64,000 nucleotides of DNA from Leucoraja erinacea (GCF_028641065.1 NC_073389.1:29822001-29886000); one strand, 5' to 3'; counted from the stretch's first letter, positions 275 through 54,600 are shown. The notes: a model not told the origin generated them from the sequence alone. A program made the numbers and translations.

Positions 275-844
275 TACCAGTCACATTTGTGGGATGCAGT
301 CGGAAACCGAATCACCCAGAAGAAACAAATGCAAACACCACATAGATAGCACTAAAGTTAAGTAGCTTGAATTGTAAGGCAGTACGATCTTGGATTCTGG
401 TTCTGATTTGGGAAGTATTTACTTGTCTATGAGCAGTGGGTTCTGCATTTATAATTGAGACACAGGAGTCTGTAAATGCAGGAATGTGAAACAAAACTTA
501 AAATGTTTCTAAACTCATGGCATCAAGCAGCATCTTTGGAGGCAAAGGGATGGTCAACATTTTACCCGAGACCCTGGGTCAAGACAGAGTGTGCAGGGGC
601 GATAAACAGCATAAGGAAGAGGGTGGTGGGCAGATGGAGCCACGTGGGGGAGAGGAGAATGGGAAGGGTGAATCAAAGGAGAAGAAACCCAGTTAGGTAG
701 GTACATGGGCGATGGACGCATGGAACTAGTGAGGGACGATGATGGCAGAAAGGTTGGTGTTGGAACAGGAAGTGGAGTTGGAATGATATGCAACTCTCAA
801 GTCAAGATGGCCGTCGCAGAGAGTGTGGAAGTACTCTGCCAAAT

Positions 845-1625
845 GTGGTTGAAGGAACTGCAGATGCTAGTTTATACCGAAGATAGACAGAATATGCTGG
901 AGTAATTCAGTGGGACAGGCAGCATCTCTGGAGAGAAAGAAACATAGAGACATAGAAATTAGGTGCAGGAGTAGGCCATTCGGCCCTTCGAGCCTGCACC
1001 GCCATTCAATATGATCATGGCTGATCATCCAACTCGGTATCCCGTACCTGCCTTCTCTCCATACCCTCTGATCCCCTTAGCCACAAGGGCCACATCTAAC
1101 TCCCTCTTAAATATAGCCAATGAACTGGCCTCAACTACCCTCTGTGGCAGAGAGTTCCAGAGATTCACCACTCTCTGTGTGAAAAAAGTTCTTCTCATCT
1201 CGGTTTTAAAGGATTTCCCCTTTATCCTTAAGCTGTGACCCCTTGTCCTGGACTTCCCTAACATCGGGAACAATCTTCCTGCATCTAGCCTGTCCAACCC
1301 CTTAAGAATTTTGTAAGTTTCTATAAGATCCCCTCTCAATCTTCTAAATTCTAGAGAGTATAAACCAAGTCTATCCAGTCTTTCTTCATAAGACAGTCCT
1401 GACATCCCAGGAATCAGTCTGGTGAACCGTCTCTGCACTCCCTCTATGGCAATAATGTCCTTCCTCAGATTTGGAGACCAAAACTGTACGCAATACTCCA
1501 GGTGTGGTCTCACCAAGACCCTGTACAACTGCAGTAGAACCTCTCTGCTCCTATACTCAAATCCTTTTGCAATGAAAGCTATAAGAATGGGTGATGTTTC
1601 AGGTCGAGACCCTTTTCAGACTCTG
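845..1625 (-). mobile_element. Short Penelope-derived element split by a young CR1 insertion
   Basis: 845-940 (gaaggaactgcagatgct...gcagcatctctggagag) and 1583-1625 (aatgggtgatgtttcaggtcgagacccttttcagac) are the two halves of the repeat seen intact at 31240-31375. Confidence 0.75.
938..1581 (-). mobile_element. CR1-clade LINE (HER1-like), 5'-truncated, young
   Basis: ORF 1025..1528 ([15 protein letters not shown]...RTRGHSL...[14 protein letters not shown]) is the CR1 ORF2 C-terminus; 3' tail GGGCCGAATGGCCTACTCCTGCACC plus (TTCTATGT)n. Confidence 0.92.
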
Positions 1626-2814
1626 ACTCCAGAGTTTCAGGTCTTGACAGCTGAAGGCATGGCCATCTGTGGTGAAGAGATTAAAATTGGGAACTAAGGA
1701 GGACAGAATTGGAAACACTTGGAGAAATCCTTTGAAGGTTTTAGGGTTTGAAGAAATTAAAGCTGAGGAGTGAATAAGAAGAGCTTTTCTAATCAGTAAG
1801 CATGTGTAGTGATTTAGACCAAATTAGGATGGGTATACGAGTGTTGAATAGTTTCCAATTTATGTTATTCATTGATAACTACTTTCTCCATTTAATGTTA
1901 TAACTGTATAATATAAACTAATGATTGGGCCGGAAACCTCAAAGTCATCTGTGTGAAGCTTTGTCATAAACATTTTGGAAATTAGATTATACAGTCTCAT
2001 TATCCACCATTCGGGTTTGTTCCAAAAATTCTAATCACTGATGTGTGACAGTGCCACATTAAATTCTTGGCTATCTGATAAACCTGAACTTGAGCGAATG
2101 CTCATTTTGGCCATACAAAATTTTTGCAGGGACACAAGGAACTGCAAATGCTGGAATTTTTAACAAAACACAAAGTGCTGGAGTGACTCAGGAGGTCAGG
2201 CAGATTTGTGGAGGGTATGAACAGATGATTTTTCATGTCAGGATCCTTTCCCAGCCTTGGAAAGGTTTTGTATCCGGGAAATGAAATGGCATGACTTTTA
2301 AACAATGCAGTCACTTCTTTCTCCGGTGCCATAATTATAGATAGTTATCAGTAATGTGTATGTGTACCTTTCCATACTATTCCACTATTTTTATATTGAA
2401 CTGTCAGTTTGCATTGTGATGAGGGTTCAGATTTTAGAGTGGTGCCGTAAGGTTTTGTTTAACAATGCTTTGGCAGATTAGCACTTAAGAGGTTGTGCCT
2501 TTCTTAGGAGATTTCCTGATGCTTTTAAATCATTGATGTAGAGCTCCTTTCTAATCCGTCTGATCCCTTTAACCTACTGAAAAGGTAAACTCAAAAGTTT
2601 GCTCGATGTAGCATGGAGCAACTGAGATTATACTAAAATATTCATTTTACCAGCTCAAACAGTCATTTGCAGTATTCAGTTCAGAAAGGATTCCATCTTA
2701 GCTACGCAAGTATGCGTTTACACTTAGTTTTCAGTGTGTGGGCGTAATAAAGCAGTGAAATAACATTTTGGGAGCAGGCTATTCTGTGAAAACAACTAGT
2801 TTTCATTAGCAAAT

Positions 2815-3270: not shown

Positions 3271-3271
3271 A

Positions 3272-4828: not shown

Positions 4829-4910
4829 GTCTGAAGAACGGTCTCAACCCGAAACGTCGTCCATTCCTTCTCTCCGGAGATGCTGCCTGAGTTGCTCCAG
4901 CATTTTATGT
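4829..4910 (+). mobile_element. Short Penelope-derived insert with hammerhead-like motif and 12 bp TSD
   Basis: CTGAAGA...GAAACGTC at 4831-4858; ATACCAATATAA at 4807-4818 and 4911-4922. Confidence 0.75.
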
Positions 4911-4916
4911 ATACCA

Positions 4917-5936: not shown

Positions 5937-8309
5937 TCTAGGGCAGAGGGGAAAAAATTACCGAAAGGCCTGTTTCCGCGCTGTATCTGCAAACTAAACT
6001 AGTGTGTGAATGTGGGATCGCTGGTCGGCACGGAATCAATGGGCCGAAGGGCCTGTTTCCACGCTTAATTTCTAAAGTCTCATGTTTTACACACCTCTGC
6101 TAGGATATTTTTACCGTGTACCCTATTACTGCTATCATAATTTTGCACGCATTAATTTGGTCTCTCTTCAGCCCCAGGGAAAACCAGTCCAGCCTTTCCA
6201 GTCTGTCCTCATAACTGAAACACTTGTCCCTGGCAACTGGTGGATTCCCTGATGAATCTCCTCTGTACCCTCTCCAGGGAAGTCACATCTTTCTGTAGTG
6301 TGGTCACCAGAATGCATACAATACTGCAGCTGTCCTTACCTTTCACCCTTTAGAGAAAGAACAGAATGGCTCTGAACTCTTGCTATTTCACATTTAGCTC
6401 ACTCCCACTTGCTGCAGGTAGACTTACCTAGTAAAGTAACTGTTTGAGAACACCACCTCATAATCTACTTCGGCAACCTACAGCCCAATATGAACACTGA
6501 ATTCTCCAATTTTAAGTTATGCCTCCCTACCCCACCTCTCGATCGTCTTTCCTCCTAGCCCTCCCGGCCCACCTCGACCCAGCATGCACACATTTCTCTG
6601 ACTACTACCACCCCACTCTCTCTGCTCCTTTCCACTCCTCCAGTGTTCATCTCCCACCCCTCTCATCTCCGACTTCATTTCCCATTATATCTCCTTTCCT
6701 CATCCACCCATATCCGTCTCTACAATGTTATATTCCACTCTTTCCTTGCCTGACACCCTTTTATCTCCTTTCCATCTCTAGCTTTTGCTAGTTATTGCAC
6801 CCATCTACCAATCAAACCGCCTCGCCTGCAGCCACCCTATGTCAAACCTTTATGTCTGGCTTTGTCAACTTGCCAAGCTTTTTTCCAGCTTCCCCTCTTC
6901 CAGTCAGCCAGATGAAGGATACTGCCCTGAAATGTCGTGTTTGTGTTTTTATCTCCATATATAAGAAATTTGTTTCCAGGCTTCTAGGGTTTTTCTTGCT
7001 GTTTCTACCTTCTATATTCTGGAGACTTACTGCATTCAGTGTCTCTTGTGTCTTCATTGTTAAAGCTTTAGGATTTCAACCACAAGTGAAACACTGTCAT
7101 CCTTAGACATCGGCAATTGATTTACATCATGTGTGTATTGCTGGAATGGCCGGCTTTTATTGCTCATGTGTGTGCTCTTGAGAAAGTGGAGGTAAGCTAT
7201 CTTCCTACTCCACTGCAATGGTGAAGGCACTGCTCTGTAACAGTATAATGATTTAAACCCAGCAGTAAGTCAGGATATGTGACCTGGGAGGGGAACTTGC
7301 AGAGGCTGTCTCCTTCCTTTCAGCTGATGCACTAATATTAGGCACCACTTTGCTGAACATTTTAAAGTAAGTTAGATATTTTGGTTTAATGCGAAATAAA
7401 AAGAGGATTCTAATTAAAATCCAATTTAATTTATGTTTTTTTCCACCCTTAATTGTAGGCAATTGATTGCCTCTAATAACTAGAGGGACTAACAAGGAAA
7501 TTAACATGAATTCTGTGGAGCTAGCTCTAATTGTTTAAAAAGATTACTTCACACTTTTCCAAGTCTCCCACACAATGCATGTGTACAGTTACAGTAAAAA
7601 ATCCATCCGCAATGCTTCCAGATTATTTCCCATTTATCAGACTGCAGGAAACTGGCTGCCTCACAGTATGTCGCATGTCCACTAAAGGTTCTGTTTAAAT
7701 CAGGATGTGCCATGCCAGAGGCAAACTATTGTGTCTGTCTACTTTGAAGTTTTCATGAAAACAGGACTGTGCGGCTTTTTGATTATTATGGTGGCAGAAT
7801 TTTAAATGTCAAAAATTGCAGTTAGTTTTGGAGGAATAATATGTATCTTGTAACAGTACCAAAAGCAAAATGATGTGTGAAACAGAGAATTAATGTATGG
7901 ATGAGTTTTCATCAGCACTAGAGAATGTTAGCAACCAAACATGCTTTAGGTTGCAAGTAAGGGCTTATAGAGGAAGCTGGGAGAAGAAAACGAAGGTAAT
8001 GTCTGTGATGAGGTGGAGACTAAGCAACAGAATGTCGCATGTGGTGGTAGTGGTGCGGTGGAGAGAAGATGGTGCTATGAGTTGGGGTTGATCTGTCTGG
8101 AGCATACGTAAGTAGGAATTCAATGAAAACAGCAGAAATAAAACTGCTGTAACAGTTGTTGCTGGAACTGAAATAAGAGAATACTGGAAATCAGCATGTT
8201 AGGAAACATTTGTGGAGAGTAGTGATGCAGATATTACAGACTAATGACCTTCCATCACGACCAACCAGTTCTGAAACAAGCTGTAAAGACCAAATGATCT
8301 GGACTGTTG

Positions 8310-8440
8310 TGTTTAAGAAGGAACTGCGGATGCTGCAAAATCGAAGGTACACAAAAATGCTGGAGAAACTCAGTGGGTGCAGCAGCATCTATGGAGTGAA
8401 GGAAATAGGCAATGTTTCGGGCCGAAACCCTTCTTCAGAC
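8310..8440 (-). mobile_element. Short Penelope-derived insert with hammerhead-like motif and 23 bp flanking direct repeat
   Basis: Reverse complement GTCTGAAGAAGGGTTTCGGCCCGAAACATTG; AGACCAAATGATCTGGACTGTTG at 8287-8309 and 8437-8459. Confidence 0.85.
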
Positions 8441-9468
8441 CAAATGATCTGGACTGTTGAATAGAATCAGGAATTGGAAAATATGGAATTGGGTCCTTTG
8501 GCCCACCATCAAGTACCTATGTTTACTGCAAGTTGAAATTCTCCGGTCCAGCATTGTGTCATACAATTCTAGTGGTCCAGCACATTTGAATCTGTATTTC
8601 AGATCTATACTGAATAACTATTTCTTATCAAAACATGCCAAGATCTAAAATTAACTAAGAGGCATTTTCATGTGAGCAGATATCACAGAGCTGGAGAATG
8701 TAATAGGAGTTTTTACAGGAACTAGGGTGATGGATAGATTGAGGAACTGGTCACCTGAAATGGATATTGATTACTAACGTATCCCTGAGATAGAAAGAAG
8801 ATAGTCAAGAAAAGGAAAGCAAGAGTGAAAGATGGGCCAGGTGAAAGTGAGACTGAGCTAGAAATTGGAAGCAAACGGGATGAAGGCTTTCAGGTCTGTA
8901 TGAGACCAAGAGATTCACCTATATTTGGACAAGGTGAGGGAGGAAACTTTAGTAGAACTAAATCCCACAGAGACATGCAAAACTGGACGTGCAGGAAATG
9001 AATAGAATTAACAGGAAGTTCATTGTGAGAAGGAGTTCAATCAGCCAAAAGAGGGTGTTGATGATGAAGTCTGGTGTAGTTAGAGAAGGATTAGACATCC
9101 GTAAATGAAAATAAGTTAACTAGATCTTGCAAAGTGGCAGAGGGTGTGAGCGGAGTTATGGGTGTAAGTTTGAAGAAACCAGTTACAGGAAGATAGAATA
9201 GTCAAGCTAATTATAAAGAAATTTTGTGTTGCAAGAAATGATGGGCCTTCCAGGATAGCCCTATTTGTGGTTAGCAAGAATATGTAGGTTGTCCCTGTTG
9301 AGGGACTATGAGGCTGAAGGTTGTTCAGATTAAATTAGATCAATGACTGTCTTGGAGGTGATAGAATGGTGTGCGCTGTTGGTGTATTGACGGACTTTGG
9401 ATACATCATGGCAAAATAATAGACAACACTAACTTTGTTCTAAATGGTGCATTTTGTTTCCTTGGCAG

Positions 9469-9613
9469 ATCTGTCGAAGAATAGACTGAATGAAGTTCCG
9501 CTGGAAGTATGCCACTTTATCTCCCTGGAGACATTGAACCTGTATCACAACTGCATCAAAGTCATTCCTGATACAGTCATCAATCTGCAGGCATTGATGA
9601 ATTTAAACTTGAG
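9469..9613 (+). CDS. LRCH1: LRCH1 exon (probably exon 2), LRR: (D)[47 protein letters not shown](S)
   Basis: ttggcag|AT CTG TCG...TTG AG|gtgagc; 145 bp, phase 1 to 2; LxxLxLxxN repeats. Confidence 0.95.
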
Positions 9614-12600
9614 GTGAGCCTAATGATCAGACTGTATTTGAACAATCTGTGGTGTGAGCACACATTCACATTCAGAATCACAATCATACAGTATTCCGCC
9701 TGTTGTACCTGTTAATCCTATTTACCCGCATTAAGTCTATACCTTGGGATTCAAGTATTTGTCCAGTTGCTTCTTAAATGCCACAAGACTATCAGCCTCC
9801 ACCACCACTTCAGACAGCACATTCCATATTGCAAACACTCCTTCCCCCTCCGAATCCTAAATCTCCTACCTCTCTCTTTGAACCTATGCCTTCTTATCTT
9901 ATATGAATTAAGTTGGGGATTATTAGGATGGATAGTAAAAATCCATTTCCCATGGTGAGAAAAAGGTTATTTCTATCTACACTACCTACTCCTATTGTAA
10001 TATTCTATACTTTCAACGTCCTGTGTCTGGGGGAAAAAAAAGACCAGTTTGATCAGTCTCTCTTTATTATCGTAATGCTTTCAATTCAGGCAACATCCTG
10101 GTGAATCTCCTTAACACCTTGTCATAGAGTTGTGCAACACAGAAGCAAACTCTTTGACCCAACCGCTCGATGCCAACCAAGATTACCGGAGCTAATCCCA
10201 TTTGCCTGCGTTTGGATAATATCCCTCTTTCCAATCCATGTAACTGAGCGTCTTTTAAACATTGTAATCGTTCCTGCCTCTGAGTTCCTTTGGTAGTTCA
10301 TTCCATATACCGACCGCCCTCTGTGTGAAAAGGTTACCTCGGATCCCATTTAAATATTTTTCTCATCCTAAACCTCTGCCCTCTAGTTTTAGACACTCTT
10401 ACCCTGGGGGACAGAACCATCCACCATTATCTATGCCCCTTGTGATTTTATAAAACAATGCCATTTCGGCCTTCCTATGGTGTCGCAATTAGAACAGCGC
10501 ATAGTTCTCCTGTTCTAACCAGTGTTTTATAAACCTGCAACATACCATGACACAATACTAGTCATTCACTGTTGGAGCTGATGTAATCAATTTTTACTTA
10601 AAAATTAGTTCTCATTTCCATGGGAGTTGATGAGGTCAGGAGGGGACATGGTTGAGGTAGATACAATTATGAGGTATATATGCCATGGAATATATAAATT
10701 AAACTGCAGAAAATCTTTTCCCTTATGAGAGGTGAATAAATGAGGGAACATAGATTTAGGGCAAAGGGTAAACGATTTAGAGAGGATCTCGGGGGGGGGC
10801 GGGGTTTATTAAGTTAGGATTAATATAGGTGGGTGCCTTTTGACGGCGTGAGGTGGGTGGCCAAATGGCTTGTTTCCTTTGATGAATTGCTATATATTTT
10901 ATTACTAGAACCATTCTGTACCAATCCCCTTTTACTCCCAATATTATTATCTTCAGTTAAGTTGATTGGAGAAAATTAGTTGGTGACAGACCTGTTTCAT
11001 TGTGATGAATATGGCTTTATAACCACAAAATGCCTTGTGTAAAAACTGAAAATAAAAAAAGTTATTGACTTTCTGCAAATAAAATGTAAAATTCTCGTGG
11101 CTTCAGTTATGGAATTGTTCTAACCAGTTATCTTTCCAAATTGTTGGGTGAAATTGACGGTAATGCTGAGTGAATCATTGTGTCCCTAAAGTCACCTCTG
11201 TGTGAATCAAGTATGTGGAATTTCACATAAAAGCATTCCCACTTCCAAGCTGGTCCATTCTGGAAATTTGAGTTATGTCAGCTGAATGGCCTATTTCTTG
11301 AGCAACAATACAGAGATTTCTCGGAAGGACTGGAACTTTACTAAAGCTCATTCAGGAAAACTTTGAGACATGCGAATGCAGATACTGGAATCTGGAGCAA
11401 CAGACAATCTGCTGGGAGAACTCAGTTGGTTGAGCAGCATCTGTTGGGGGAGGGTGGGGAGAAAGGGATTGTCAACATTTTAAGTCACAACCCTTAATCA
11501 GGACTCCTTCAGCAGATTGTTTGTTGGTTCAGGAAAAATTTGAATAGCTCAATAACCCCGTACAAAGGACCAAATATTTGTTACAATGTGACTGCTTGAA
11601 TGGCTTCAACAACATCTTTGCAGCTAAATGTTTTCTACTCCTTCCTGTTATGGTGTATTTAACTTGATAATTTGATGGCAAAAAACGGGGAGCATTCAGG
11701 CTTTAAATTTAATGGCCTAAATGCAATCCACGGGGAAGAGAATTGATTATGGTGCACTAGCACTTAATGATGGCACAAGCTGTGAGTGCCCATGTTGAGT
11801 AGGCTCCCTGCTGCACGTGTACAATGACTGCCGGAGGTTTTATTAAAGCTATTTGTGAACCAGTTTGTTAACTAAGGGGCACAGGAACATTATGGCTAGG
11901 TTACTGGGCCAGTATCCAGGAGTCTGGAGGAGGCCTATTTCCACCATAGACATTATGGGAATTCAAATTCCAGTTACTAAATTAATCTCATATGAAACAC
12001 TTGTATCGGTTCTGATGACCATAGAATGGCTGGATCGTCATGAATATTCATCGCTTCTGGGCAGTCCTCAGGGTAGAGGTTGACTTGCTTTCACTCCAGT
12101 TTGTGTATTTTAATGAGGCTTATATGGGAATGCCAGACTCTTCCATCGTGATCGGAAACTTGTTAGTTAGGGGGACAGACAGGAGATTTGGTGACAGCAA
12201 CAAGACTTCAGGATGATGTGTGCCGAACTGGTGTCAGGGTCAAGGATGTCTACGAGCGGTTGCAGAACATTCTCAAGGGGGAGGGCGAGCAGCCAGAAGT
12301 TGTGCAGATTGGCATAATAACATGGGTAGGAAAAGGGATGAGGTCCTGCAAATTGAATATAAAGTGTTAGGCAGAAGATTAATAAGAAGGACCCTGGGGG
12401 TAGTCAAGTCCCAATTATTCCCAGTGTCACATGCTAGTGAAGGTAGGAATAGGAAAATAGGACAGATGAATGTGTGGCTCAAGGATTGGTGCAGGGAGCA
12501 GGGTTTGAGATTTTTACACCGTTGGGTCACTTCTGGGCCAGCGATGACGTACTGGAGGAACAGGTTGCATCTGATCTGGAGGGGGATCAATATGCTTCCA

Positions 12601-21600: not shown

Positions 21601-24600
21601 TTCCTCCTCCGATCCAATCTAATTCCTCTCATTATTTCGTACAACTTTTGCCAAGTCTCCTCTTTTTCTCTTTTGCTCCAAGCAAACCAAATTCAGCCGA
21701 TTGAATCTCTTCATAGTTGAAATGTTCCATCCCAAACAACTTCCTGGTGAATCTCATCTGCACCTTCTCACTTCCTTCCTAATAATGCGGTGATCTGAAC
21801 CACACGCTGGACTCCAGCTGTGGTCTAACCAATGTTCTATAAAGTTTTACCAAGTTCTCCATGCTCTTACGTTCTGTGCCACCATCAGGAATCTTTGGAC
21901 ATAGACCAAGGTTCCTTTGCACCATTGTTAGGGCGCAACCATTTTTGGTATATGTGATGCTCTTTTTTTAACACCCCTTCCCCAAAAAAACCCAAAATGC
22001 AACACCTCACTCTTACATGAATTGGCCATTGCTTGGCCCAATTTACCAGCTCATCAGTGTTGTTCTGTAGCCTAAGACTACCCTCCTCACAATCAATTAC
22101 AGCAGTTGGCTGCGCAATGCGCAGTTGATAGAGCCACGGCCTCACAATGGCAGAGACCCAGGTTCAGTCCTGACCTCGGGATGCTATCTGTGTGGAATTT
22201 GCATGTTCTCCTTATAACTGTGTGGGTGTCCTCTGGGTGCTCTGGTTTCCGCTCACATCCGACTCATGGGTTTATAGGTTATTTGGCCTCTGTAAAAAGT
22301 GCCCCATGTGCATAAAGAGTGGATGTGACAAAGTGGGATAACATGGAACTAGTGTGATAAGGTGATTGATTGTCGGCATGGACCCAGTGGGCCGAAGGGC
22401 CTATTTTCATGCTTTATCTCTAAACTAAACTGATGAAACCTCACTGATTTTCATATCATCTGCAAATGTAATATAACATGTCTTGTGATTTTTCTCAATC
22501 CTATCTGCCAGTTTTTTTTTGTGAATGCACTTTGCCCTCATAATTTCTTTTTTAAGCATCCCTCCCTCCTCCGGTACCCGATACTCACTGTACCATCCGG
22601 TGCAGTGGCACAAAGCTCTGTATACATTCGTATAGGTAGTTCGAAAGAAAACCTCATAATAACTTTGTTTTTGCTTTTTACCATTCAGGACGTGAGTTGT
22701 AATGAAATTACAACTTTGCCACAACAAATGGGACAACTTCAGTCGCTCAGAGAGTTGAACGTCAGACGAAATTATCTGCAGATTTTGCCAGAGGGTGAAG
22801 CTGTTTTTGAATTTCTTGATATCTTGCTATTTCCTCACGAGCCAGTGAAATAGTTCATGTAAATACTGAAGCACTTCATTTTTTCTCCTGCAGAGCTGGC
22901 AGACCTCCCTCTTGTGAAATTAGACTTTTCCTGTAATAAGATTGTATCGATACCAATCTGCTACAGAAACATGAAGCATCTACAGAATATACAAATGGAT
23001 AACAATCCACTGCAGTCTCCGCCAGCACAGGTCAGTCATTTACTAAAAGATATCCAATGCCATTTTAAAAATGCCCTTTCTGGTGCTTTGAAGATAGATT
23101 CAATGTAAACTACTGCTGAAACTGCTCTTTGCTCATATGGAATAAAAACATAGCACATCGGCAATATATGTGGAGAAACTGGTAAGTGAACTTTATAAGG
23201 TGAATGAGTTTTCATCAGACTAGAGAAAACTTAGACATCAAACATGATTTTTGCAATGAAGAAGGGTGTAAAAAAAGAGTGGCACAGCAGTGGAGTTGCT
23301 GCCTTACAGTGCCAGGGCCCCAGGCTCGATCCTGACCTCTGGTGCTGTCTGTGCGGAGTTAGCATGTTCTCGCAGTGACTGCATGGGTTTTCTCTGGGTG
23401 TTCCTGTTTCCTCCCACATCCTAAAGATGTGTGGATTTGTAGGTTAATTAGCTTCTGTAATAAATGATCCCTACTGTGTAGTGTATATTGGTAATCGCTG
23501 CTCGGCGTGTACTCGACGTTTGAAGGGCTTGTTTCCATGCTGTATGTCAAAAAAACACAATGGTGGTGGAGCTGATTGAGAAAGGCCACTGATGTCTCTG
23601 TGCGATTGTACAGGGCTTCCTGGGATCCCATCCAGAGCACATTTCTTGCCTCCTTAGCTGAGGAAGATGTTAGAATCTTTCCAACACTGACCTTTCCATC
23701 CTGGGCCTCCTCCATTACCAGAATGAGGCCACACGCAGACTGGTGGAACAACACCTCATATTCCGCTTGCGTAGCTTACAACCCAGCGGTATGAACGTCA
23801 AATCTTAGCTAACCTCTAATTTCCCCCCCTTTTCTCTTCGCCACCCCCTCTAATTGACCTCCAAACCTTTGGCATGTGGGAGGAAACCGGACCACCTGGA
23901 GAACCTACGAAGAACCTACGAACTCCGTACAGACAGCACCCATAGTCAGGATCGAACATGTGTCTCTGGCGTTGTAATGTAGGAATTCTACCGCTGCGCC
24001 ACTCTGCGGCCTAAATTTCTAGGCCTCATCTTTACCATAGATGCTCGGTCCCTTTACAGTTCCATTCCCCACCAGGAAGGTCTCAAGGCCTTCCGTTTCG
24101 TCCCCAAACAGAAATCCAATAATTTTCCCCTCATGAACTTGTCCTCAGCCTAAACAATTTCTCTTTTGACTCCTTTCACTTTCTTCAGGTTGTAGCCATG
24201 GGTGCTTGCATGGGCTCCAGCTATGCCAGCTTTTTGTTGGTTATGTCGAATAGTCCTTGTTCCAAACGTACACTGGAACTATTCCTCAGCTCTTCCACCA
24301 CAAAATCGACAACTGCATCGGGGCTGCCTCCTGCAGCTGTGCAGAACTCATTGATTTCTTTAACTCTACCTCTAGCTGTCACCCTGCCCTCAAATTCACT
24401 TGGAATATCTCCAACATCTCTACAACATATAATCCTCCGAAATTTCCGCCATGCAACACGTAATCCGAAGTTTCTGCCACCTCCAACGGTATTCCACCAC
24501 TAGCCACATTTTCCCATCTTCACCCCTTTTCGCCTTCCTCAGACTGTTCCCTCCGCAACTCCCTGATTAACTCATTCCTTCCCACCCAAACCACCCTGTC

Positions 24601-30600: not shown

Positions 30601-33600
30601 GTTGTCAATTATGAATATCATATCTCTTTCCCATGACTTCCAATTATTGGGGTTTACCAAGGCAAAACAACTACCTGGGTTACCTGTCTTTGAAGAAAGG
30701 CCTGCAGCATACTAAGGTTGCGGTTGATCATGTTTCAATTTCCCTTTTTAGTATTTCATGGAAAGCTATATGCTGGAATTTAGAAGGAATAAATAATAAA
30801 AGTGTAGGCTATTTTCTAAATGGGGAGAGGATTCCGAAATCAGAGGTGCAAAGGAACTTGCGAGTGTTGGTGAAGGACTCCCAAAAGGTTAATTTGCAGG
30901 TTGAGTCAGTAGTAAGGAAGGCAAATACAATGGTAGCATTCATTTGGAGAGGTCAAGAAAAGAAAAGCAAGGATATAATGCTGAGGCTTTATAAGGCACT
31001 GCAGGCCACATTTGGAACATTGTGAACGATTTTAGTCCCCAATCTGAGGAAGGATGTGCTGGTGTTAGAGATGGTCCAGAGAACCATCTTTACGAGAATG
31101 ATCCCGGGGATGATTGGGTTAACAAATGAGGAGCATTTGATATTTCTGCGCCTGTACTCACTGGAATTTAGAAGGATTAGGGGGAATCTCAGTGATAACT
31201 ACTGAATAATGAAAGGCTTAGATAACATGGGCGTGAAGAGTCTGAAGAAGGGTCTCGACCTGAAACATCACCCATTCCTTCTCACCAGGGATACTGCCTG
31301 TCCCGCTGAATTACTCCAACTTTTTGTGTCTCGTATCTTCGGTTTTAACCAGCATCTGCAGTTCCTTCTTACACAGGATGCTTCCAGTAGTGGGAGTCTA
31401 GAACCAGTGGGCATAGGCTCAGACTAAATGGACGTACCTTTAGAATGGAGATGAAGAGGAATTTTAGCCGAAGGGTGGTGAGTCTGTGGAATTCATTGTC
31501 ACTGACAGCTGTGGAGGGCAAATCTCTGGGTGTTTTTAAAGCAGAGATTGATAGGTTCTGAATTAGTAAGGTTGTCAAAGGTTAAGGGGTGAAATGGGGT
31601 TGAGAGGGAAAAATGGAACAACCATGATCGAATGGCAGAGCCGATGACTCGATGGGCCAAACAGCCTAATTCTGTTCGAATGTTTTATAGTCTCATGGAA
31701 TTATGCTCTCTGAGAAATATTTTCACAGTAGAGAATTTGAAAGGCAAATCACTTTAACTCTGTGTAACGACTGACCCTGACTTGCTCATTCCTACAATAA
31801 ATTAAAATTCTAGAATTATTTGCCCCTCTCAGACTTGCCGTCCTTTGAAATGTTAAATGTTGTCAGAATTTTATTGCTTTCACACTAATGAAAAAAATGC
31901 AGGACATTCACCTAGAAATGAATTTTGTACAAGCTATGTCAGTGACTTATGAACATTTAAACCTCCTTTTACTTGGTTTACATTTTGATCCTTTGGTTAC
32001 ATCCTTCCTTGAGTATTGTGCTCAGAATAGCCACACAGTTCTCTAGCTGTGGCTGAATTGTGATTTATTGCTCCTCTATTACATTTAGACACAAGCCATA
32101 TGTGACTTTGTATTCATACTAATCTACATCATAATTCATTTGCCAATTTCATGCTGATTTAACATTGTTAATAGACTCTCTTGCTTTGCAGCAATTGTCC
32201 TCTGCATTAATTGCTCATGATTTATTGCTGTCTGCAAATTTTTAAGATAATGAAAACATTTAATAGGGTAAACAGAAATAAACGTTTCTGCCTGTGGGGA
32301 GTCTGAAACTAGAGATCGAAAATATGAAGGAGAAGTCTGAAGAAGGGTTTCGGTCCGAAACGTTGCCTATTTCCTTCGCTCCATAGATGCTGCTGCACCC
32401 GCTGAGTTTCTCCAGCTTTTTTGTGTACGATCGGAAATATGGGCTGGTCACCAATAAAATGGATAATAAAATAGAAACTCTTTGGCCTGAAGGATTAGAA
32501 TGGAAAGTGGTATCAAAATTAGGCAAATAGCATGCATTTAAGAAGGAGATAGATGGAAGGGTAAAGAAAATAAAGATAATTAAAAAATGCTTATGCTGAT
32601 AGAATTAGATTAAGTAGGGTAGGAGGATGCTCCCGTGAAACAAGGCATACATGGGTTGGTCAAAGTTAAATGATTTAATACTTTGCACAGAACTCTAGGA
32701 ATCTATTTGCATAAATCCAAGGACATCTTGAGTTTCTGGTTGCATGTCATTTCAAAACTCCTTTCCCATACCTGTTCCCACATTGACCAGAATATCATTG
32801 GCCTTCTCCGTAGCCACGGTGAGACCGAACCCAAAGTAGAACAGAACCTACTTTCCTGTCTGAGTAATCTACATCCCAATTATATGAACATTGAATTTTT
32901 CATTTTCAGGTCATGTGTTCTTTCTCCACTTCCACCGGTCTACCCAGGGTCTTTCTCTCATTGTTCACGCTTCCTTCCCTCCTTCCCTGTTATCCAGACT
33001 CATCATCCTCTCCGACCAAGTTCCATCTACCCGTCACCTAGTTTCCTGTTTCTTTTTTCTTGGATCACCTTTCCACTCCTCTCTCCCCCCTGTCACCATC
33101 TGTCCATCATGCACACCAAAGCTGGTTCTACTTATCGCCTACCAACACCTCACCCTGGCCCTTCACCTCTTTATACTGACTGTTTCCACTCTACACACTC
33201 AGTCCTGATGTAGGGTCTTGACTCTGAAATGTCAACCATCCATTTGACTCCAAAGATGCTGAATTACACTGAATTTTTCCAACAGTTTATTTTTTGCTCC
33301 AGATTCCAGATCTGCAGTCTCTATTGTCTTGAGATCTGTGAATTAAAGTATTTCATTAGTCCGTACTTAAGGATGTCTTTAAAAACAGAACCTGTTCATT
33401 ACCCAAGGACAACCTGAAAATGATTCCAAAAGCATTGCATTGATAGTTTGACAACTCGCTGAAAAGCTCTTTAACTGTATGGTCTATTTATTTATTTATA
33501 GTGTTAAGCAAATGAGGAATGGTTAGCTTACTTTGTAAATGTCCTTCTTTATGGAATATGGGTCAATCATCTTTTACATAATTCCATTTATTCTTCCTTT

Positions 33601-36600
33601 GAATAATCCAACAGTGATTCTGCTGCTTATATTCTTACTATATTTTAACTTCACTTCATCAACTATGTCTTGTCAGTGCCAGTTCTTTTTCATGGAGCCG
33701 AGGTACTAGACCAGCAATGTGGTTGGGAACATTAGAAAAACTTCTTATGTCACCAATCGTGCGATAAAGTTGTTTCCAAGAATAACACTGTGCTTGTTAT
33801 CTCCCTTTCACACAACCCTCTGCTACCACCCAAAAAAATATAAACCTGGCTTCACGAAGTGGTACAAAGGTATGTATGCATGCACAAGCTGCCTTCTGCT
33901 GACTTACCAAGTCAACACTTGGAAAAAACCCCCAATCTGTATTGACAAGTAAAGGTTGGAGATGCACTTGTAAACAAAACACTGAATGCATTTGCTATAG
34001 ATGCAAAATACAAGGCCTTAATAAAATTGTATTGATAATTCTTACTAGATAACAAAAGATATATTTCCTGGTGATCCAGTTTTGTTGAAGTAAGTTAACT
34101 TGTTTGTTATTTTGTATGCTGAGTGTTATCCTTACAAAATTGATTATTGTTGCAACTACCTGTGATTTTCTGGGACAGAGTGATGTTGCGTTACAGGGGT
34201 AAAACTCTGTACAAAGCAAACCTGAAGATCTTACTCCGTCATGTACTTGCTACATTTATGACTAGAGCCAGGATTATGCCATAAATGCATTTTCATGCCT
34301 TTTTCATGATCGAGTGCCTAAATCAGCCTTTTTTTTTTGGCCGTTTTGCTTAAAGGTCGCGCTATTATCTCTAGTTGTACCATGATTACAATGACGTTTT
34401 CTATGTTAACATGTTAATATTAATGTTATTATTAACGTGTTAACTGTATAACTTTCAAGAAAACTTCCACCACTGGGATGAAACCGGGGGCGCCACCGTC
34501 GGTCATTTATTCGTTCGTGCCGCTGCTCTCCGGTTCAGGCTTCTCTAAGATCTATTTAAGAAAGAACGGCAAATGCTGGAAAACTCAGCGGGAGGCAGCA
34601 TCTATGGAGACAATGCATAGGCGACATTTTGGGTCGAGACCCTTCTTCAGACTGATGTTGGGGGGGGGGGGCGCTAATAAGAAAGGAAGAGGCAGAGACA
34701 GTAGGACTAGAAGGGGAGCTGGAAAGGGGGAGGATGGAGAAGACAAGGGTTATCAAAAATTAGAGAAGTCAATGTTGATACGCTGGAGTGTAAACTACCC
34801 AAGCTTGTCTCCTCATTATATTTACTGCTGGCTCCAGTCGCAAATCTGAGTTTCGATTGATCTGTGCAAAGCATTCATTGATGCTGGAATTCCACTGTAG
34901 AAATTGGAAAACAAACCTCTCAGAGGTTTTTTAGAGAAATACACGGAGGAACATATACCAAGCGAGTCTTCATTATGGAAAAATTATGTTGATAGCAACT
35001 TCAACATTGTTATGCGGAAAATTAGAGATGAAGTTGCATGCAACAAAATATGGATCTCAATAGACGAGACAGCCGATGCTGTGGGGAGATATGTTGCCAA
35101 TGTGGTCATCGGTACACTGGAGGCAGGTCAACCATCAAAGGAGTATTTGTTGACATCGGAAGTATTGGAGAAGTCAAACAGCTCAACGTTTGCTCAGTTG
35201 TTTACATCTTCACTTGCTGTACTGTGGCCAGAAGGTATAAAACACGAGAATGTTCTTCTGTTTGTGACTCAAAGTTTTATTCCCCAAAATGTTGCATTTG
35301 ACATGATAAGTTCAAGGACTTCATACAATTGCCAAGCACATACGTAGCTTGATTCCAAATGTCGATCGCCTAGTTTCCAATGTCAAGAAAATCTTCCTCA
35401 AAACACCATCACAGGTGCAGTTGTTCAAGGAAATGGCACCCGGGATTCCGCTCCCTCCTCAGCCCATTTTGACTAGGTGGGGTACATGGCTCTCTGCTGT
35501 ACTCTACTATTCTGCAATTTTTAAAAAGATAAAAGAAATCGTCAACTGTTTTGAAGAAGAAGAATCTGCTGCAGTCAGGATCGTCTGTGAAATCATGCAG
35601 ATAAAGTCCCTCCACCGTAATCTTGTGTTTATTGCTTCCAATTTTGCAAACTTCCCACAAGCTATCACTTCCCTTGAGAAATGTGGCGAAACATTAGTCA
35701 ATAACTTGCAGGTTTTCAACAAAGTAACTGACGATATTCGTAAAGTTCCTGGCGATGTAGGTAAAGGCATACAAGGAAAATGTGAGAGAGTGATTTTAAG
35801 CTAACAAAGATCTTGAAGAAATAGAAAACATAGCTAAAGTACTCAAAGGTAGTGGTAATGAACAAGATATCAACATGAATATACAGTCTGTAGCTTGTTT
35901 CGGGTATGCAACAGTGACCTCAGCTGAAGTAGAAAGAAGTTTTTAATAACTGAAGCATATTCTGTCTGACAGATGGCATAGTTTACCACCAGATAATTTG
36001 AACAAAATGTTAGTAATTATGTGCAACCAGGCAACTTTGGTCATTTAATGTAGTATATCTTTATAAATTTTAGCTATATTTTGCTGTGGAAATAAATGCC
36101 TTTTTTGTCAATAAATGCCATATTCGCGCCTTTTTGTAATTTTATTATTCCTTTTTGCCTGCCTATTTCAGGGTTTTTTAGTGCCTAAACATCTTGGCTA
36201 TTTATGACCATCAGATGCTTATTTTTCAATTCCAATTCAAGTTACTTTTCTGGCACCATTTTTCCCTTCAACTTTTTGTGGGGTTGCTCTTGTGAGTAAC
36301 ATAATGGGCTTGTTGAAAGTACATCAAACATTCAAGTATGAAAGTCAGAGGTGGTCATTTAAAACAACAGTTGGTGTTTGCTTGCTGATGGCTGTTACGC
36401 ATAATAGTTTATTGAGATTGATTAAGAGAATTAGTTAGTTGTTAGTCTGAAATGAAAGATTATCAAATTATATATTCTAGGAATATTATATTTAGATTTA
36501 AATTATTACAAGTTTGCTGTTTTATCATATGCCTTAAAAAACACTGTTGATTTATTTAAGCAAATGCTGTAATTTTTGAAAATGCATTCTAAAGAAAATA

Positions 36601-39600: not shown

Positions 39601-42600
39601 TCCTGGTGGGCAATGTCACTGAAAACTTTATTTGAAGCTCTTAGGTTTCCTTGTATTGAGTGCAGCAGCCTGACATGTATGATTTGCTTGCATGAGCAAA
39701 TATGCAAGGAGGTTGTTTTTGTATTTGATAGTTTCAGCTGTATTCACTGCTGACTTTTGAAACGTCTTGACTCTTGAAGTTGGAATAAGAGAGAATCATT
39801 TGTGGCGTTCTGTTCTCAACATACATGCAGAAGCTTCTGTTTCTCTAACACCAGAGAAAATTCACAAATTCTCTATATATAAAAAAAACCTTCTCTGATT
39901 CTTCATGCAGATCAGAGGCCTTGGGAAGAACATCTTTCTCTCATTTGTTAAGTTTTCATGTATTTTGATAGTTATTTTATGCTGACATTGAGATGACAAT
40001 GCATGGTTGTTTATACCTGGTTTGAAAGTAGCACAAACAGTAGCCATTTTGATTATTATTTGATGCCTGTTTTGTTCCTTGTAGGAATTTCTACGGTTCC
40101 CTTTTCTTGACTATGTCTGTTTGTATAGTATGGGGTAGCAAAACTATCTTAGCAATTTGATGATACTGTGTTGATTTGATCCACTACCTGTTATAAATCA
40201 ATCACATATGTTTTGTAAAATCCATGAGAGAAATGTATTACTTAAAATAAGCAAAGGGCATGGAAATTGCAGCTTTAAAAAAATTAAGCCAAGTTGTATA
40301 ACAGTAGCAGTGGAAGTACAACATGTGTAGTTGGAGGGGTTGATCTCTCACTGTGTTCTCCCAGATTCTGTCTGTAACTTCAGAGCCAGATGGAAACGAC
40401 CATTTACACATTCCTTCATGGATTCCCCAGAAATGTTAATGTGAAATTGGGGTACTTCCACCACCTAATACAATGTTCCACATTGTTGAATTATTCAGAG
40501 CTGCTGCATGATATTACAAGATTCATCCTAGTGTGATAGGGTGGGATGGGAGCACGCAGGATTTGCCTTATGAAGAGAGAATACGCAGATTGTGTTTGTG
40601 CTCTCTTGAGTTTGGAAAAACGAGAGACAATTGTATTATAATATTAAAAATTCTAAGAATCATCATAGGTTAGATATAGGGAACATGTTTCTCGTGGGTG
40701 GGGTATCTAGAACCAGGTGTCACTGTCACTCAATAAGGGGTCTGCTTAGGGAGCAAACTGAGATGAGGTTTCTTCACTTAGCGGGTGACGAATTCTTGGA
40801 ATCTTTGGCTCGGGTATTGGGGACATTGAAGACAGACCTGCAGATAGGAAGAAGGGTTTCGGCCCGAAACATTGCCTATTTCCTTCGCTTCATAGATGCT
40901 GCCGCATCCGCTAAGTTTCTCCAGCATTTTTGTCTACCTATGATTTTCCAGCATTTGCAGTTCCTTCTTGAACAGACCTGCAGATTGTTGGGTGTTAAGG
41001 AAATTAAGGGATACGTGGTTGTTGCAGGAAAGTGATGCTGAAATTAAAAATCAACCGTAATCTTTGGGAATGCAGGAGCTGGAGCAGGTGTTTGGTGCCT
41101 TTCTCTAACGTTCTGTATTGTTAAGATCAGCAATGTTGTTGGAAAGTGTAATTGGATCAGGCAGCAGCTTTGACTCTGGGTCCACTGTCGTTTGTGCAGC
41201 AGGTGTGAACCGAGAGGATATCTTTTTAACTTTTACTAACCTCTGGCACTGGACTGTTTCATTCCAAGTAGTTTGATAAGGATCTCAATTCTGCCCACAT
41301 GCAATGACCTTATTGGGCTGGAACTTAAGAATCCATTTTCAGATTTGAACAGAATGGCTGTTAGCTGTGAGATGCCTTGCTGGGATGCACATAAACTGGG
41401 TGACCATAGTACAGACAAGTTTCTTCATGCCTACAGCCTTACGTAAGATCTGCATATATGGAGTCTAAAATAGAATTGACTACTTGCCAGGACTTTTACT
41501 CTTTTGTAAATAAAAATCAAAAACTTAATATGCTGGAAATCTGAAATGAATGTAAAAATGGCTAGAACCACTGAGCAGGTCAGACAGCAGCTTTGGAAAC
41601 AGAATGGAGTCAACGTGCCTCACCCACTGAATTACTCTAGCACTTTGTCTTTTTTTAAACCAGCATCTGCAGTTCCTTGGTTCTACATTTTATGTCAGTC
41701 TCTTTGAACTGGAAAAGAGAGTCAAGTTAATTTTTGTTACAGCAAAGATGTGGGAGGGATGGATAAAACAAAGGGTTAATCTCTGGTTAATGGAGCAAAG
41801 ATTAACACAAAATGCTGGAGTAACTCTGGGTCAGGCAACATCTCTTGATAATAGGATAGCCGACATTTCGGGTCAGGACCCTTCTTAAAACTGATTGAAG
41901 GGAGATGGGGGGTGGGGTAGCGGGGGGGGGGGGGGGGGGGGGACGAGGACTGGAAGCAAGAAAAAAAGGACAAATCGGGGGCGGTAACAGATGACCTCGG
42001 GCAAGAGGGTTCCTTGACTCTTGGCTAGAGAACCGGGTAATGGACTTTTAGTGCAGGAAATTAGGGGGGTTGAAGGGAGGTGGGGGCAAGGGAGGGGAGT
42101 GTTTGTAAAAGCTTCCTAAAATTGGAAAATTCAATGTTCATTAGCGTTGGGTTGTAAGCAATCTAAGCGGTGTTTGAGGTGCTGTTCCTCCAGTTTGCAT
42201 GTAGCCTTGCTCTGGCAATGGAGGAAACCGAGGACAGAAAGGTCAATATGGGAAAAGGGGAGTTAAAGTGGTTAGCAACCAGGAGAACCAGTAGGCCTTA
42301 GAGAACTGAGTTTAAATATTCAGTGAAACGGTTGTTGAGTCCACACTTTGTGTCGGGTAATGCAGCAGTTCGAGAGAGCACAAGTGGATGTGATTTGAGG
42401 GCAGTTAGTGTGTGAGAATTAAGGCAATTAAACATGAAACGGTGCAAAATGCAGTGCTGTGTGACATCAGGCTATACTAATGAGGAAAAAAACTCAACCG
42501 TTGGATGGATGGCCTACATAGAAAGGGCCAATATGGTACAGACAGTGAGCATGAGTTATCATAAGTTGTAGAATCCAATCTGCAGGGCAGCAACATGCCC

Positions 42601-51600: not shown

Positions 51601-54600
51601 CCGCTCGCAATTGGCCCTGACCTTACTCTCTTATCCCTTCTCGAACTTTCCTTGCCATTAATTCGAGAGTCTTTTGTAACTTTTCCTGTACTCACTTCCC
51701 CTTCAACTCCATCTTTATAGTCCCAATTTGTCAGTCCCTCTCCCCCCCCCACTATTTAGTTTAAACCCGCACATGCAGCCCTCGCAAACCTGCCTGCCAG
51801 AACGTCGGTCCCCCTCCAGTTAAAGTTTGGGAGTGGAGGCTAATGTTCGTTTTGATGTCCTACGATATCCTGTGGAGACAACATTGTAATGTCCATTAGG
51901 AGCTTTGAGTTCCCTACTGTAGGTAGTCGGAAGTTTCAGGAGGGAGGGATCAATGCTGCTAATTACTTTCCCTGAAGTTACCACTATCGGACTACTCTCT
52001 TTATGAAGATGGTCACGAGTACAAAATCTCTGAGGTCCTGTAACATATCTTTTTTTTTAATTCAGGATACCAATGGTTATTGGAAAATAGATTGCCATGC
52101 TATGTGTGCAGGAAAAAAATGCAGATGCTGGTTTAAACCGAAGATAGACACAAAAACTGGAGTAATAACAGTACAGGCAGCATCTCTGGAGAAAAGGAAT
52201 AGTTGACACTTTGGGTAGAGACCCTTCTCAGTCTGAGAGTATCTAGAGACCGAGAGATATAGAACCATGAATGATTGCAAAAAGTAATGGATCAAAGCAA
52301 GGGAACCCACAATGTTGGCTGTATGAATATTGTTTCCTACAGACAGTGAAATTAGTACGAAGACAAAGGGAGGGTCTTGCAAGGGTTACCTCTAGAGTAA
52401 TCAAAATTCGTATTGCATGTATGCCCCCAGCGAATTATAGTCACCGTACTAGTTCGCTGTTGTGTAACACGCAATCCTCTGATTTTTGACATACTGGATC
52501 CCATACGTCACATCCACAGGTGAGGAAGATTAAATAGGGTACCAAACCATGGTACCCTCCTTGGACAGGAGAAGACGACTTGATAAAAAGACAACAGGTG
52601 TGACAGATAGGGATTTTCCTCTAAGAAGTAACCCTTGATACAAAGAGCCACTGAGGAAGGATAGATACGTGAATACAGGTGAGGAAGATTTTGGGAGATG
52701 GTTGGAGAGAGGGAAGACAAAAGGTGGCGATACGTACAAAGAGCCAGTTAGGTATACAGGTGGAACAGAGGGAGAGAGGGAGGATGGGTAGGGACAAAGG
52801 TGGATGGGTAGGGAAAGGTGGTGGGAGTTTTTGGTTGGTGAGTTTACCTAAAATTGGAAGAATTCAACATTCATACTTGTTAAAGACTAGGTTCTGAGAG
52901 CTCTCTTATACCTGCATTAAGGAGGCAATTAAACTCACCTGAGCAATTGCAAACACCCATGAAGCCATGTGTCCTAAACATTATGGTGCCCTGAAATGGG
53001 GGGACTATGCATGAACACAGATGTAATTTCTACATGGTGAAACCAAAATGTATAAAAATGGCCAGTATTAAAATCTGGCAATGTGCACTTTAAGCACATG
53101 GGATTTTTTTAAATTACAAATCTCAAATTGTGGAGTACAGAGGTAAATAAATAAATGATGGATCTTTGTCCCGAACATTATGGAGGGCACTGTATATTTG
53201 GAGCAAGGAGTCTCACAGCTAGCTAACATCTATGTGAGCTAAAGTGACCACCTTCACACTCCCCACTCAACCACCAGAAAGTCTTCAATAGATCTGATAT
53301 ATTAGAATTGTAATGCGAAACAGTAATTATTTTGTCATCATCTTTTCTTGTTACAGTTCAAATTCTCAATGACCCGTGCCTTGGGTAGTTTGTTGGTTGG
53401 TCTGATTCCTTGAAATGAATGATTAATTGGAGGCTGACAGCTTCAGCTTTAGTTACTTATTTTAGCACATGATGGTTACCTCATATTATCAAAATTAACA
53501 ACAAAAACTGGCTAACAATAGTAGATTTTCATTTCCAAGGGCTTTATAAAACAGCAACATTTTAAATATATATTTTCACCTCTTTTTAAAAAAAACACTT
53601 TTTTTCCTTTTAGTGCAATCTGATCAGGAGCCGAAGGATGTGCTGCGGCATAATGTCGTGGGTGATGGCTTGAGTTCTGACTTTAGGACATACATGAAGG
53701 CAAGTGCCAAGCTCGATGCTTCATGAGAGTTATGTATACAAACCTGCTTGTGTTGGCAGCAGTGTTTGCCAATACCCTTTTCCTTCAATGGGTGCAGTTT
53801 CATTTCTTCACGGTGCATATTTATTCCACCAAAAGAAAGCGGGGTGCATCAATGCTCCATCTTCTGGGGAATTTGGGATTGTAACTATGGCTGAGTAACT
53901 GAGAACTTGTCTTTGTAGAGGACCCTAGTTTATATTGCTCGACTAAGAATTCTTTTCACATTTGAGTTTCTTTGAATTGTCTCGTTGGATCACTGACACA
54001 TCCTACACCAACTGATGATTAAGGGTCCATTTCTTCATGTAATAGTTATGAAGGTCCACCTTCATACACCTTAGGACTTCAGCACGTCCTCAACTGTAAT
54101 ACAGGCTAACCTCAAAACCCCTCTATTAACTGTCCCAAGTTGCCAATCTTTATGTCTTTCTCCACGGTAAAACAGGAGAAATACTCATTGAGGACCTTGC
54201 ACATCTCCTGGGGCTCCACACAGAGATGGCTGCTTTGGTTTCTGAAGGGCCCTATTCCCTCTCTAGTCTCCCTCATTCCCTTAATGTACATAAAATCTCT
54301 TTGGATTCTCCTGAATATTATCTGCCACATCTATCACTTGCCTCCTGAATATTATCTGCCACATCTATCACTTGCCTCCTGATATCCTGACGTATGCTCA
54401 ACCGTTCCTGAAATTTCTCCAGGGATACACTTGATTCCAGCTGCCGATATCTGTCCCATGTATCTTTTTTCTCTCATAGCGCCGCAGCTTCGCCAACAGT
54501 CCGTGTGATGATGCTAATCCTAAAGTTGATGTTTTGCAGTTAATGATATTTATATCAAAAGTGACAGGAGTAGAATTAGGTGATTTGGCCCATCAAGTCT

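What the first reader, a model, noticed from the sequence alone, without database searches (positions are those of the whole stretch)
555..52235. Dispersed family of minimal hammerhead-ribozyme motifs on Penelope-derived inserts
Seen: the motif CTGAAGA-[hairpin]-GAAACGTH recurs on both strands. Clear copies are at 4831, 8410-8440(-), 28894, 31242, 32337, 34620-34652(-) and 40848 (5'-clipped); degenerate copies are near 555-580(-), 1590-1620(-), 2230-2250(-), 6908, 11470-11500(-), 25195, 25551, 26467, 33205, 41860(-) and 52200(-). The hairpin is GGGTC-TC-GACCC or GGGT-TTCG-GCCC: two subfamilies with different sequence but the same stem. Established: CUGANGA...GAAA...NUH is the hammerhead core, and Penelope-like elements are known to carry minimal type I hammerheads. 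Inference: stem III is reduced to the palindrome ACGU, so cleavage would need a dimer. Stem I looks very short (about 2 bp). Many copies have ACGT changed to ACAT, consistent with CpG decay. Several copies are sense to the LRCH1 pre-mRNA, so two copies in one transcript could in principle pair.
Basis: partly seen in the sequence, partly recalled or inferred. Interest (0 to 1): 0.7.

Follow-up and report, generated by a model that had tools for sequence, protein, structure and literature searches.

The report
Skate Penelope stubs with shrunken hammerheads

Summary
The motif is real (24-25 profile hits in the window, 0 in the reversed control; 10,833 exact 31-mers genome-wide). It lies in the pLTR of a roughly 4-kb Neptune/Nematis-type Penelope-like element (RT + GIY-YIG), about 105 nt after the stop codon. 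It fits the published minimal type I hammerhead consensus of PLEs, so it is a new member of a known kind; the scan has noted it before (119 notes in this genome). Corrections: stem II is 4 bp plus a tetraloop; the two named subfamilies differ by a one-sided change only; of seven 'clear' copies only 32337 keeps core, stem II and the ACGU palindrome. Inserted copies decay neutrally. Two-sided covariation appears only against older families, which have a 4-bp stem I; young families keep 2 bp, and their active dimer is computed as unfavourable (about +3 kcal/mol). Inserts end at about +93 or +130 and mostly start at the ribozyme's first bases, not at the cut site, so they were likely copied from uncut RNA. 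Cleavage of LRCH1 pre-mRNA is unlikely. No cleavage assay was possible.

The parts
32337..32364 (+). Only complete hammerhead motif among the copies checked base by base (young family B; stem II G-C, G-C, G.U, U.G; ACGU intact; predicted cut after 32364); tail runs to about 32428
   Evidence: tail end
28524..28787 (+). C-terminal GIY-YIG endonuclease fragment of the PLE ORF (LLYIGETKR...[10 protein letters not shown])
28788..28893 (+). Pyrimidine-rich pLTR segment between ORF end and hammerhead
   Evidence: 106 nt; 85-120 nt in 24 of 30 loci
28894..29021 (+). Hammerhead (core and ACGU intact, stem II broken at 2 of 4 pairs) plus long tail
4831..4915 (+). Stub starting at the ribozyme; G10.1-C11.1 pair lost
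8309..8440 (-). Family B stub, ACGT>ACAT, long tail, about 20-nt target-site duplication
31240..31375 (+). Family A stub inserted into a LINE fragment; ACAT
34559..34781 (-). PLE 3' end with endonuclease C-terminus, pLTR and hammerhead (core at 34650; G12>A, palindrome lost)
40848..40974 (+). Family B stub clipped inside the core; ACAT
24010..25250 (+). Long decayed PLE copy: RT motifs, Cys-rich linker, GIY-YIG, pLTR and degenerate hammerhead at 25196
25548..25820 (.). Cluster of degenerate stubs (25551+, 25759-, 25763+)
33199..33300 (+). Old family G copy (CAGTC before the core), downstream of a degenerate endonuclease C-terminus
26455..26543 (+). Old family H copy (CAGTT before the core, AGGTC stem II)
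41796..42255 (-). Decayed PLE 3' end with hammerhead near 41890
52138..52234 (-). Degenerate hammerhead and tail
497..578 (-). Degenerate family G-like copy
1582..1622 (-). Hammerhead half of a stub; a tail half lies at 871-941(-), likely the same copy split by a LINE insertion
2164..2257 (-). Degenerate older copy
11397..11501 (-). Degenerate family G-like copy
6906..6940 (+). Weak remnant (E=0.0065)
9465..9611 (+). LRCH1 exon; the whole window lies inside this host gene, which spans about -49,000 to 116,000 in window coordinates

Best explanation
The motifs are minimal type I hammerhead sequences in the pseudo-LTR of a roughly 4-kb endonuclease-bearing Penelope-like retrotransposon, and the dispersed copies are dead 95-135-nt stubs that were likely reverse-transcribed from RNA that the hammerhead had not cut. 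Shown: element architecture (tandem pLTR-ORF-pLTR, RT + Cys linker + GIY-YIG), two 3' end clusters near +93 and +130, a 5' end hot spot at the first bases of the ribozyme, target-site duplications, neutral decay. Inferred: the element's protein nicks DNA, starts cDNA at one of two internal sites downstream of the ribozyme (as shown in vitro for the Anolis element) and usually stops at the TCAGTCTGA palindrome, where head-to-head pairs are also joined. Inferred: the ribozyme acted in the element's own RNA as a dimer through ACGU. It was well formed in old families (4-bp stem I) and in young families (2-bp stem I) would cut only with protein help, or hardly at all. The intronic copies have no likely effect on LRCH1.
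For: Hammerhead found 85-120 nt after the GIY-YIG ORF end in 24 of 30 loci. Tandem units of 3975 and 4018 nt in L159 and L158, and an 1127-aa open frame in L151 with DKG, RT, CxxxxCxxC and GIY-YIG motifs. 41 of 49 young family-B copies end at +91-97 or +123-135, matching the two RT starts and 30-40-nt tail in PMC11167929. 94 of 264 5' ends lie at -6..+2 versus 5 at the cut site +28..30, which is background level. 19 of 30 copies bearing the 5' UTR run through the 5' hammerhead. Of the first 100 of 1,205 inverted junctions, 2 lie at the cut site, 3 at a control site with the same 2-nt microhomology and 30 at a longer one (counted by hand). TSDs of 8-23 nt in 17 of 97 free stubs, 0 in three shuffles. 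Two-sided changes between old families at pairs 2.1-1.1 (C-G versus U-A) and 10.1-11.1 (G-C versus A-U), with the 3' partners not fixed by the search pattern. Active dimer versus two hairpins: +3.1 and +3.5 kcal/mol for young copies, -6.1 and -0.5 for old-family consensuses.
Against: No cleavage assay. All young families keep the catalytic core and ACGU invariant in their consensus, which suggests selection for activity during their spread. 2-bp helix I is also listed for several Drosophila, Culex and Oikopleura PLE hammerheads, and the Anolis one cuts only with protein, so nearest-neighbour energies may understate activity. Cut RNA might simply never be inserted, so a missing DNA footprint does not prove no cutting. 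One copy (L191) starts exactly at +29. The covariation rests on two events between families. Old-family consensuses come from copies over 20% diverged, with CpG restored by script. The cause of the 5' hot spot is not resolved.
Confidence: 0.75

Rival explanations
1. The young-family hammerhead is fully active in vivo, cutting tandem PLE transcripts to unit length or circles; cut RNA is a different pool from the template of most stubs.
For: Core invariant across all family consensuses; tandem units put two hammerheads in one RNA; L191 starts at +29; 103 copies have an apparent boundary at +29 versus 62 at +28; model proposed in PMC4209133.
Against: The largest class among the listed +29 matches is an inverted junction with 2-nt microhomology, not enriched over a control site; 19 of 30 long copies read through; active fold is computed as unfavourable and the core as mostly paired elsewhere.
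Confidence: 0.2
2. The stubs are an independent non-autonomous family (SINE- or retrozyme-like) that copies itself.
For: Very high copy number, shared start point, own TSDs; PLE-derived retrozymes exist (bioRxiv 2026.07.22.740005).
Against: Stub sequence matches the pLTR and tail of long elements; the same two 3' ends occur on long copies; copies are dispersed monomers or inverted pairs, and only occasional tandem arrays were seen (L120, L012).
Confidence: 0.1
3. Sense copies in LRCH1 introns pair in cis and cut the pre-mRNA, regulating the gene.
For: All 4 strict-core copies in the gene are sense; in a double hammerhead 32337 could supply the enzyme strand and 28894 the substrate strand.
Against: Only one copy is complete; the interface is 4 + 2 bp with no computed stability over 3.4 kb; no strand bias (25 versus 27); decay is neutral; copy density in the window is close to the genome-wide sample.
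Confidence: 0.03
4. The 5' hot spot is the transcription start (initiator-like TCAGT), so stubs are run-off copies of the first 95-135 nt of the element's RNA. This is compatible with the best explanation and differs only in why copying stops there.
For: YCAGTY is kept in all families; in old families stem I pairing ends exactly at that A; starts cluster at -2 and -1.
Against: No excess of cap-derived G (5 of 19 and 8 of 21; p=0.52 and 0.20); TSD-anchored starts spread from -6 to +3; none of 30 long copies starts at -2.
Confidence: 0.4

Closest known systems
[quoted passage not shown]
   Same: CUGANGA + extra H, G-C at 10.1-11.1, GAAA, palindromic CG, UH; located in pLTRs; mostly solitary copies of truncated elements; predicted dimers.
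   Different: No chondrichthyan in their Table S1 or Fig. S3 text; stem II only 4 bp with a Y-N-C-G tetraloop; stem I 2 bp (their low end); about 96,000 intact motifs by extrapolation (35 in 800 kb) versus about 4,000 in coelacanth and 9,000 in Xenopus.
Poseidon element of Anolis carolinensis, PAc (Frangieh et al. 2024, PMC11167929; read: parts 1-2 of 4)
   Same: Tandem pLTR structure, two internal RT starts defining a 30-40-nt tail, uncut RNA as main template, no RNA-seq ends at the cut site.
   Different: PAc ORF starts in stem II and its RT starts lie inside the ORF; here the first ATG is about 165 nt after the core and both end clusters lie in the 5' UTR. The skate protein has the Cys linker that Poseidon lacks.
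Neptune/Nematis EN+ PLE clades (Craig et al. 2021, PMC8557442; passages read)
   Same: C-terminal GIY-YIG with CCHH, CX2-5CxxC linker, DKG motif, partial tandems, inverted 5'-truncated copies, tail.
   Different: Clade not fixed by a tree here; long low-complexity Pro-rich N-terminal region; clear 8-23-nt TSDs in a part of the stubs.
Non-LTR retrozymes (bioRxiv 10.64898/2026.07.22.740005; read: parts 1-2 of 5 and passages)
   Same: PLE-derived, type I hammerhead; reported in one chondrichthyan genome.
   Different: Retrozymes are tandem arrays with a hammerhead in every unit; these are dispersed monomers or inverted pairs.
Lunse, Weinberg and Breaker 2017, RNA Biol 14:1499 (small PLE hammerheads cleave as dimers)
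   Same: By its title, the same class of motif and dimer mechanism.
   Different: Text not held; only the reference line was seen, so overlap with these skate families is unknown.

Membership tests
PLE minimal type I hammerhead | Core CUGANGA ... GAAA ... UH | tested here: met
   All young family consensuses and family H; family G mostly reads CUGAUG-C-A
PLE minimal type I hammerhead | Stem II with G10.1-C11.1 and one unpaired base after A9 | tested here: met
   4 bp, G-C first pair, extra A; A-U first pair in family H
PLE minimal type I hammerhead | Palindromic 15.2-16.2 replacing stem III | tested here: met
   CG in young consensuses; CpG-decayed CG in G and H
PLE minimal type I hammerhead | Helix I closing the core (usually 3-5 bp, 2 bp in some) | tested here: met
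   2 bp in young families, 4 bp in G and H; 2-bp examples in PMC4209133 Fig. S3
PLE minimal type I hammerhead | Structural covariation | tested here: inconclusive
   Two two-sided changes between families, none between the young subfamilies; R-scape not available
PLE minimal type I hammerhead | Self-cleavage as dimer | not testable with these tools
   Computed as unfavourable for young copies; no DNA footprint
Rfam hammerhead families | Covariance-model match | tested here: not met
   No hammerhead hit at E<=10 in the window; Rfam models expect full stems (own knowledge)
EN+ Penelope-like element | Single ORF with RT and C-terminal GIY-YIG | tested here: met
   L151, L155: RVT_1 and GIY-YIG hits, both below the curated cut-offs, plus motifs read directly; 1,700 homologues
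EN+ Penelope-like element | Partial tandem pLTRs, inverted 5' copies, tail | tested here: met
Neptune clade | CX2-5CxxC linker plus CCHH | tested here: met
   C-x4-C-xx-C linker and C-xx-C...H...H in L151-L156; shared with Nematis
Neptune clade | RT phylogeny | not tested
   No labelled reference sequences were at hand
Non-LTR retrozyme | Tandem units each with a complete hammerhead | tested here: not met
   Window copies are dispersed; in the 43-nt triplet of L120 two of three cores are mutated

The most novel reading that the evidence does not exclude
A natural series of ribozyme decay: older elasmobranch PLE families had a 4-bp stem I, while the skate families that spread most cut it to 2 bp, kept the catalytic core and left no cleavage footprint. 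The hammerhead would then have become protein-dependent or a recognition and stop signal for reverse transcription, and the stubs would be strong-stop-like cDNAs marking the RNA's 5' end. Matched old and young constructs would directly test what PLE hammerheads are for.
Probability: 0.35. Interest if true: 0.5.

Novelty: new member of a known kind. Interest (0 to 1): 0.25.

Why it matters
The class is known, and these intronic copies are almost certainly inert. Their value is as data on an open question, the role of hammerheads in PLE replication. Hundreds of thousands of dated insertions show copying from uncut RNA, two fixed 3' ends and a 5' hot spot at the ribozyme's first bases. Near-intact young elements and older families with longer stem I give ready-made pairs for cleavage assays. 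The intact-motif count (about 96,000 by extrapolation) is about ten times the vertebrate counts in PMC4209133.

Tried and rejected
Rfam scan: no hammerhead hit. Cleavage footprint in DNA: looked for in 30 long copies (1 of 11 downstream starts at +29), 100 of 1,101 truncated copies read by eye (no peak), exact-boundary counts (103 versus 62, confounded by microhomology and indels), inverted junctions and 264 sampled copies; not supported. Splice acceptor at CAG|T with host exons copied upstream: rejected, because upstream flanks are target DNA with TSDs, and no intron-like joint was among the joints shown in the RNA reads (15 of 108 and 15 of 268 shown). Cap-derived G: not significant. RNA: no RNA holder listed. 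Three raw RNA runs added by species label showed no pile-up of ends at the cut sites; these are oligo-dT or cDNA libraries with reads from many copies and almost no depth on unique LRCH1 intron, so this is no test of cleavage. A search for an endonuclease end upstream of 30 family G loci found none clearly; the link rests on the window copy at 33205 and on the shared tail. Literature: searches listed no paper on skate or shark PLE hammerheads by title or abstract start; Lunse 2017 was not held, supplement 1 of PMC4209133 was not searchable, and bioRxiv supplements are closed, so prior description of these families cannot be excluded. The sequence look-up in earlier findings was blank.

Full report
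Observation. A strict core scan gives five matches; a profile from six window copies gives 25 hits and none in the reversed window. One 31-nt motif has 10,833 exact copies in G000 against 0 for the reversed control. In 80 arbitrary 10-kb stretches there were 339 hits, 227 spanning the core and 35 with intact core plus 4-bp stem II, which extrapolates to roughly 0.9 million, 0.6 million and 96,000. Stem II is best read as 4 bp with a CUCG, UUCG or CCCG loop. Rfam has no match.

Host. The exon at 9465-9611 matches two skate LRCH1 records at 100% (P0121, P0123). The gene spans about -49,000 to 116,000 in window coordinates on the + strand, so the whole window is inside it. The repeat hits in the gene split 25 sense to 27 antisense (counted).

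What carries the motif. Upstream of 28894 lies the C-terminus of a GIY-YIG endonuclease. Among the 30 best genomic matches to it, 26 had a recognisable hammerhead downstream, 24 of them at 85-120 nt. Searching with an RT fragment found long open frames; 20 were fetched. L151 has 1127 codons with DKG, RT motifs, a C-x4-C-xx-C linker, CCHH and GIY-YIG (the Pfam hits are below curated cut-offs). L159 and L158 are partial tandems with hammerheads 3975 and 4018 nt apart; the first ATG lies about 165 nt after the core. By the features in PMC8557442 (passages) this is a Neptune- or Nematis-type element; no tree was built. The best homologue is from a shark at 68% identity.

Families and covariation. 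262 sampled copies fell into eight clusters of 8-26% divergence. The four youngest share CUGAAGA-A, a GGGU stem and a 2-bp stem I (U-A or U.G, then G-C). Within them the core changes no less than the tail (226 of 2164 versus 767 of 9562 non-CpG sites; the core figure is inflated by 5' truncation), and the CG palindrome decays as a CpG: inserted copies are neutral. Two old families were pulled out with patterns covering only the 5' half (128 and 99 matches; 30 and 40 examined). Family G has 5' AGUC with 3' GACU (position 1.1: G 13, A 13, gap 4 of 30, as expected for a decayed CpG; the fourth pair is weak, U 10 of 30). Family H has 5' AGUU with 3' AACU (A 29 of 40) and an A-U first pair in stem II (U 26 of 40). 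These are two two-sided changes and support the hammerhead fold for the lineage, though they are only two events.

Could it cut? In a nearest-neighbour model the double hammerhead costs +3.1 to +3.5 kcal/mol relative to two hairpins for young copies and lies 16-22 kcal/mol above the best dimer fold; old-family consensuses gain 6.1 and 0.5 kcal/mol. In the 140-nt context stem II is almost never formed in the three young copies tested. PMC4209133 reports no monomer activity and low dimer activity for a Schistosoma min-HHR; PMC11167929 reports protein-dependent cleavage that is not needed for insertion. So weak or protein-assisted activity is expected, and was not tested here.

What the insertions record. 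3' ends are bimodal: 41 of 49 family-B copies end at +91-97 or +123-135, as for the two RT starts of the Anolis element. Every such copy spans the predicted cut at +28/+29, so its template was uncut there (inference). 5' ends pile up at -6..+2 (94 of 264, 10 per nt) while the cut site has 5 (1.7 per nt, background 1-3). 30 of 116 young copies have an inverted partner within 130 nt upstream. 19 of 30 copies with the 5' UTR read through the 5' hammerhead; one starts at +29. A recurring inverted junction at the cut site is not enriched over control microhomologies. TSDs were found in 17 of 97 free stubs, which also rules out spliced host exons as the upstream flank. The hot spot could be a transcription start at the initiator-like TCAGT (motif recalled) or a stop at the TCAGTCTGA palindrome; a cap-G test was not significant. 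Penelope of D. virilis has an internal promoter upstream of an intron (PMC2377424, passages) that ends at helix I; no such intron was seen here.

LRCH1. One complete sense copy, a 6-bp interface to its nearest possible substrate, no strand bias and neutral decay make regulation by cis pairing unlikely.

Comparison and verdict. The motif meets the sequence and structure features of the published PLE min-HHR; activity is untested. It works like the Anolis system as far as DNA can show. No description for skates was listed in five literature searches, but Lunse 2017 could not be read. Earlier notes of this scan reach the same filing (AI notes, not evidence). One of them claims a cut-site footprint in a shark genome; I did not test that, but with the absence here it sharpens the stem-I decay idea. 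New member of a known kind; interest 0.25.

Noticed in passing
L120:5015-5135: Three hammerhead units in tandem 43 nt apart (retrozyme-like array); the first two carry G12>A and a decayed palindrome.
   Followed up: no
window 24010-25510 (+): Rearranged PLE copy: the RT thumb segment is missing from its place and sits after the hammerhead at about 25250-25500.
   Followed up: partly
family G, (e.g. L322, L342): Most matches read CTGATGCAGGG, a C at or before the normally invariant A9.
   Followed up: no
window 941-1615(-), 19003-19222(-), 47773-48576(-), 48836-49588(-), 20641-21125(-): Young LINE 3' ends (CR1-like by recalled protein motifs) with GAAACATA repeat tails, up to 98-99% identical; one likely splits a hammerhead stub.
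   Followed up: no
window 34901-35801 (+): Decayed DNA-transposon ORF pieces with a weak DUF659 match.
   Followed up: no
window 13031-13591(-), 17534-17920(-), 37519-38823(-): Fragments of another LINE family; the first matches Pfam ALKBH8_N.
   Followed up: no
L063:210-2699: 830-codon open RT frame of an L1/Tx1-like LINE (label recalled).
   Followed up: no
L064:3870-8600: Long minisatellite open in all three minus-strand frames, interrupting a PLE copy.
   Followed up: no
L158:6950, 2932 and 8010: All three hammerheads of one young tandem insertion share the core change CTGGGGA, suggesting the mutant core was copied during that insertion.
   Followed up: no
L159 and L019, core to +45: In young families the purine-rich core can pair with the pyrimidine tract after the cut site, a computed alternative inactive fold.
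   Followed up: partly
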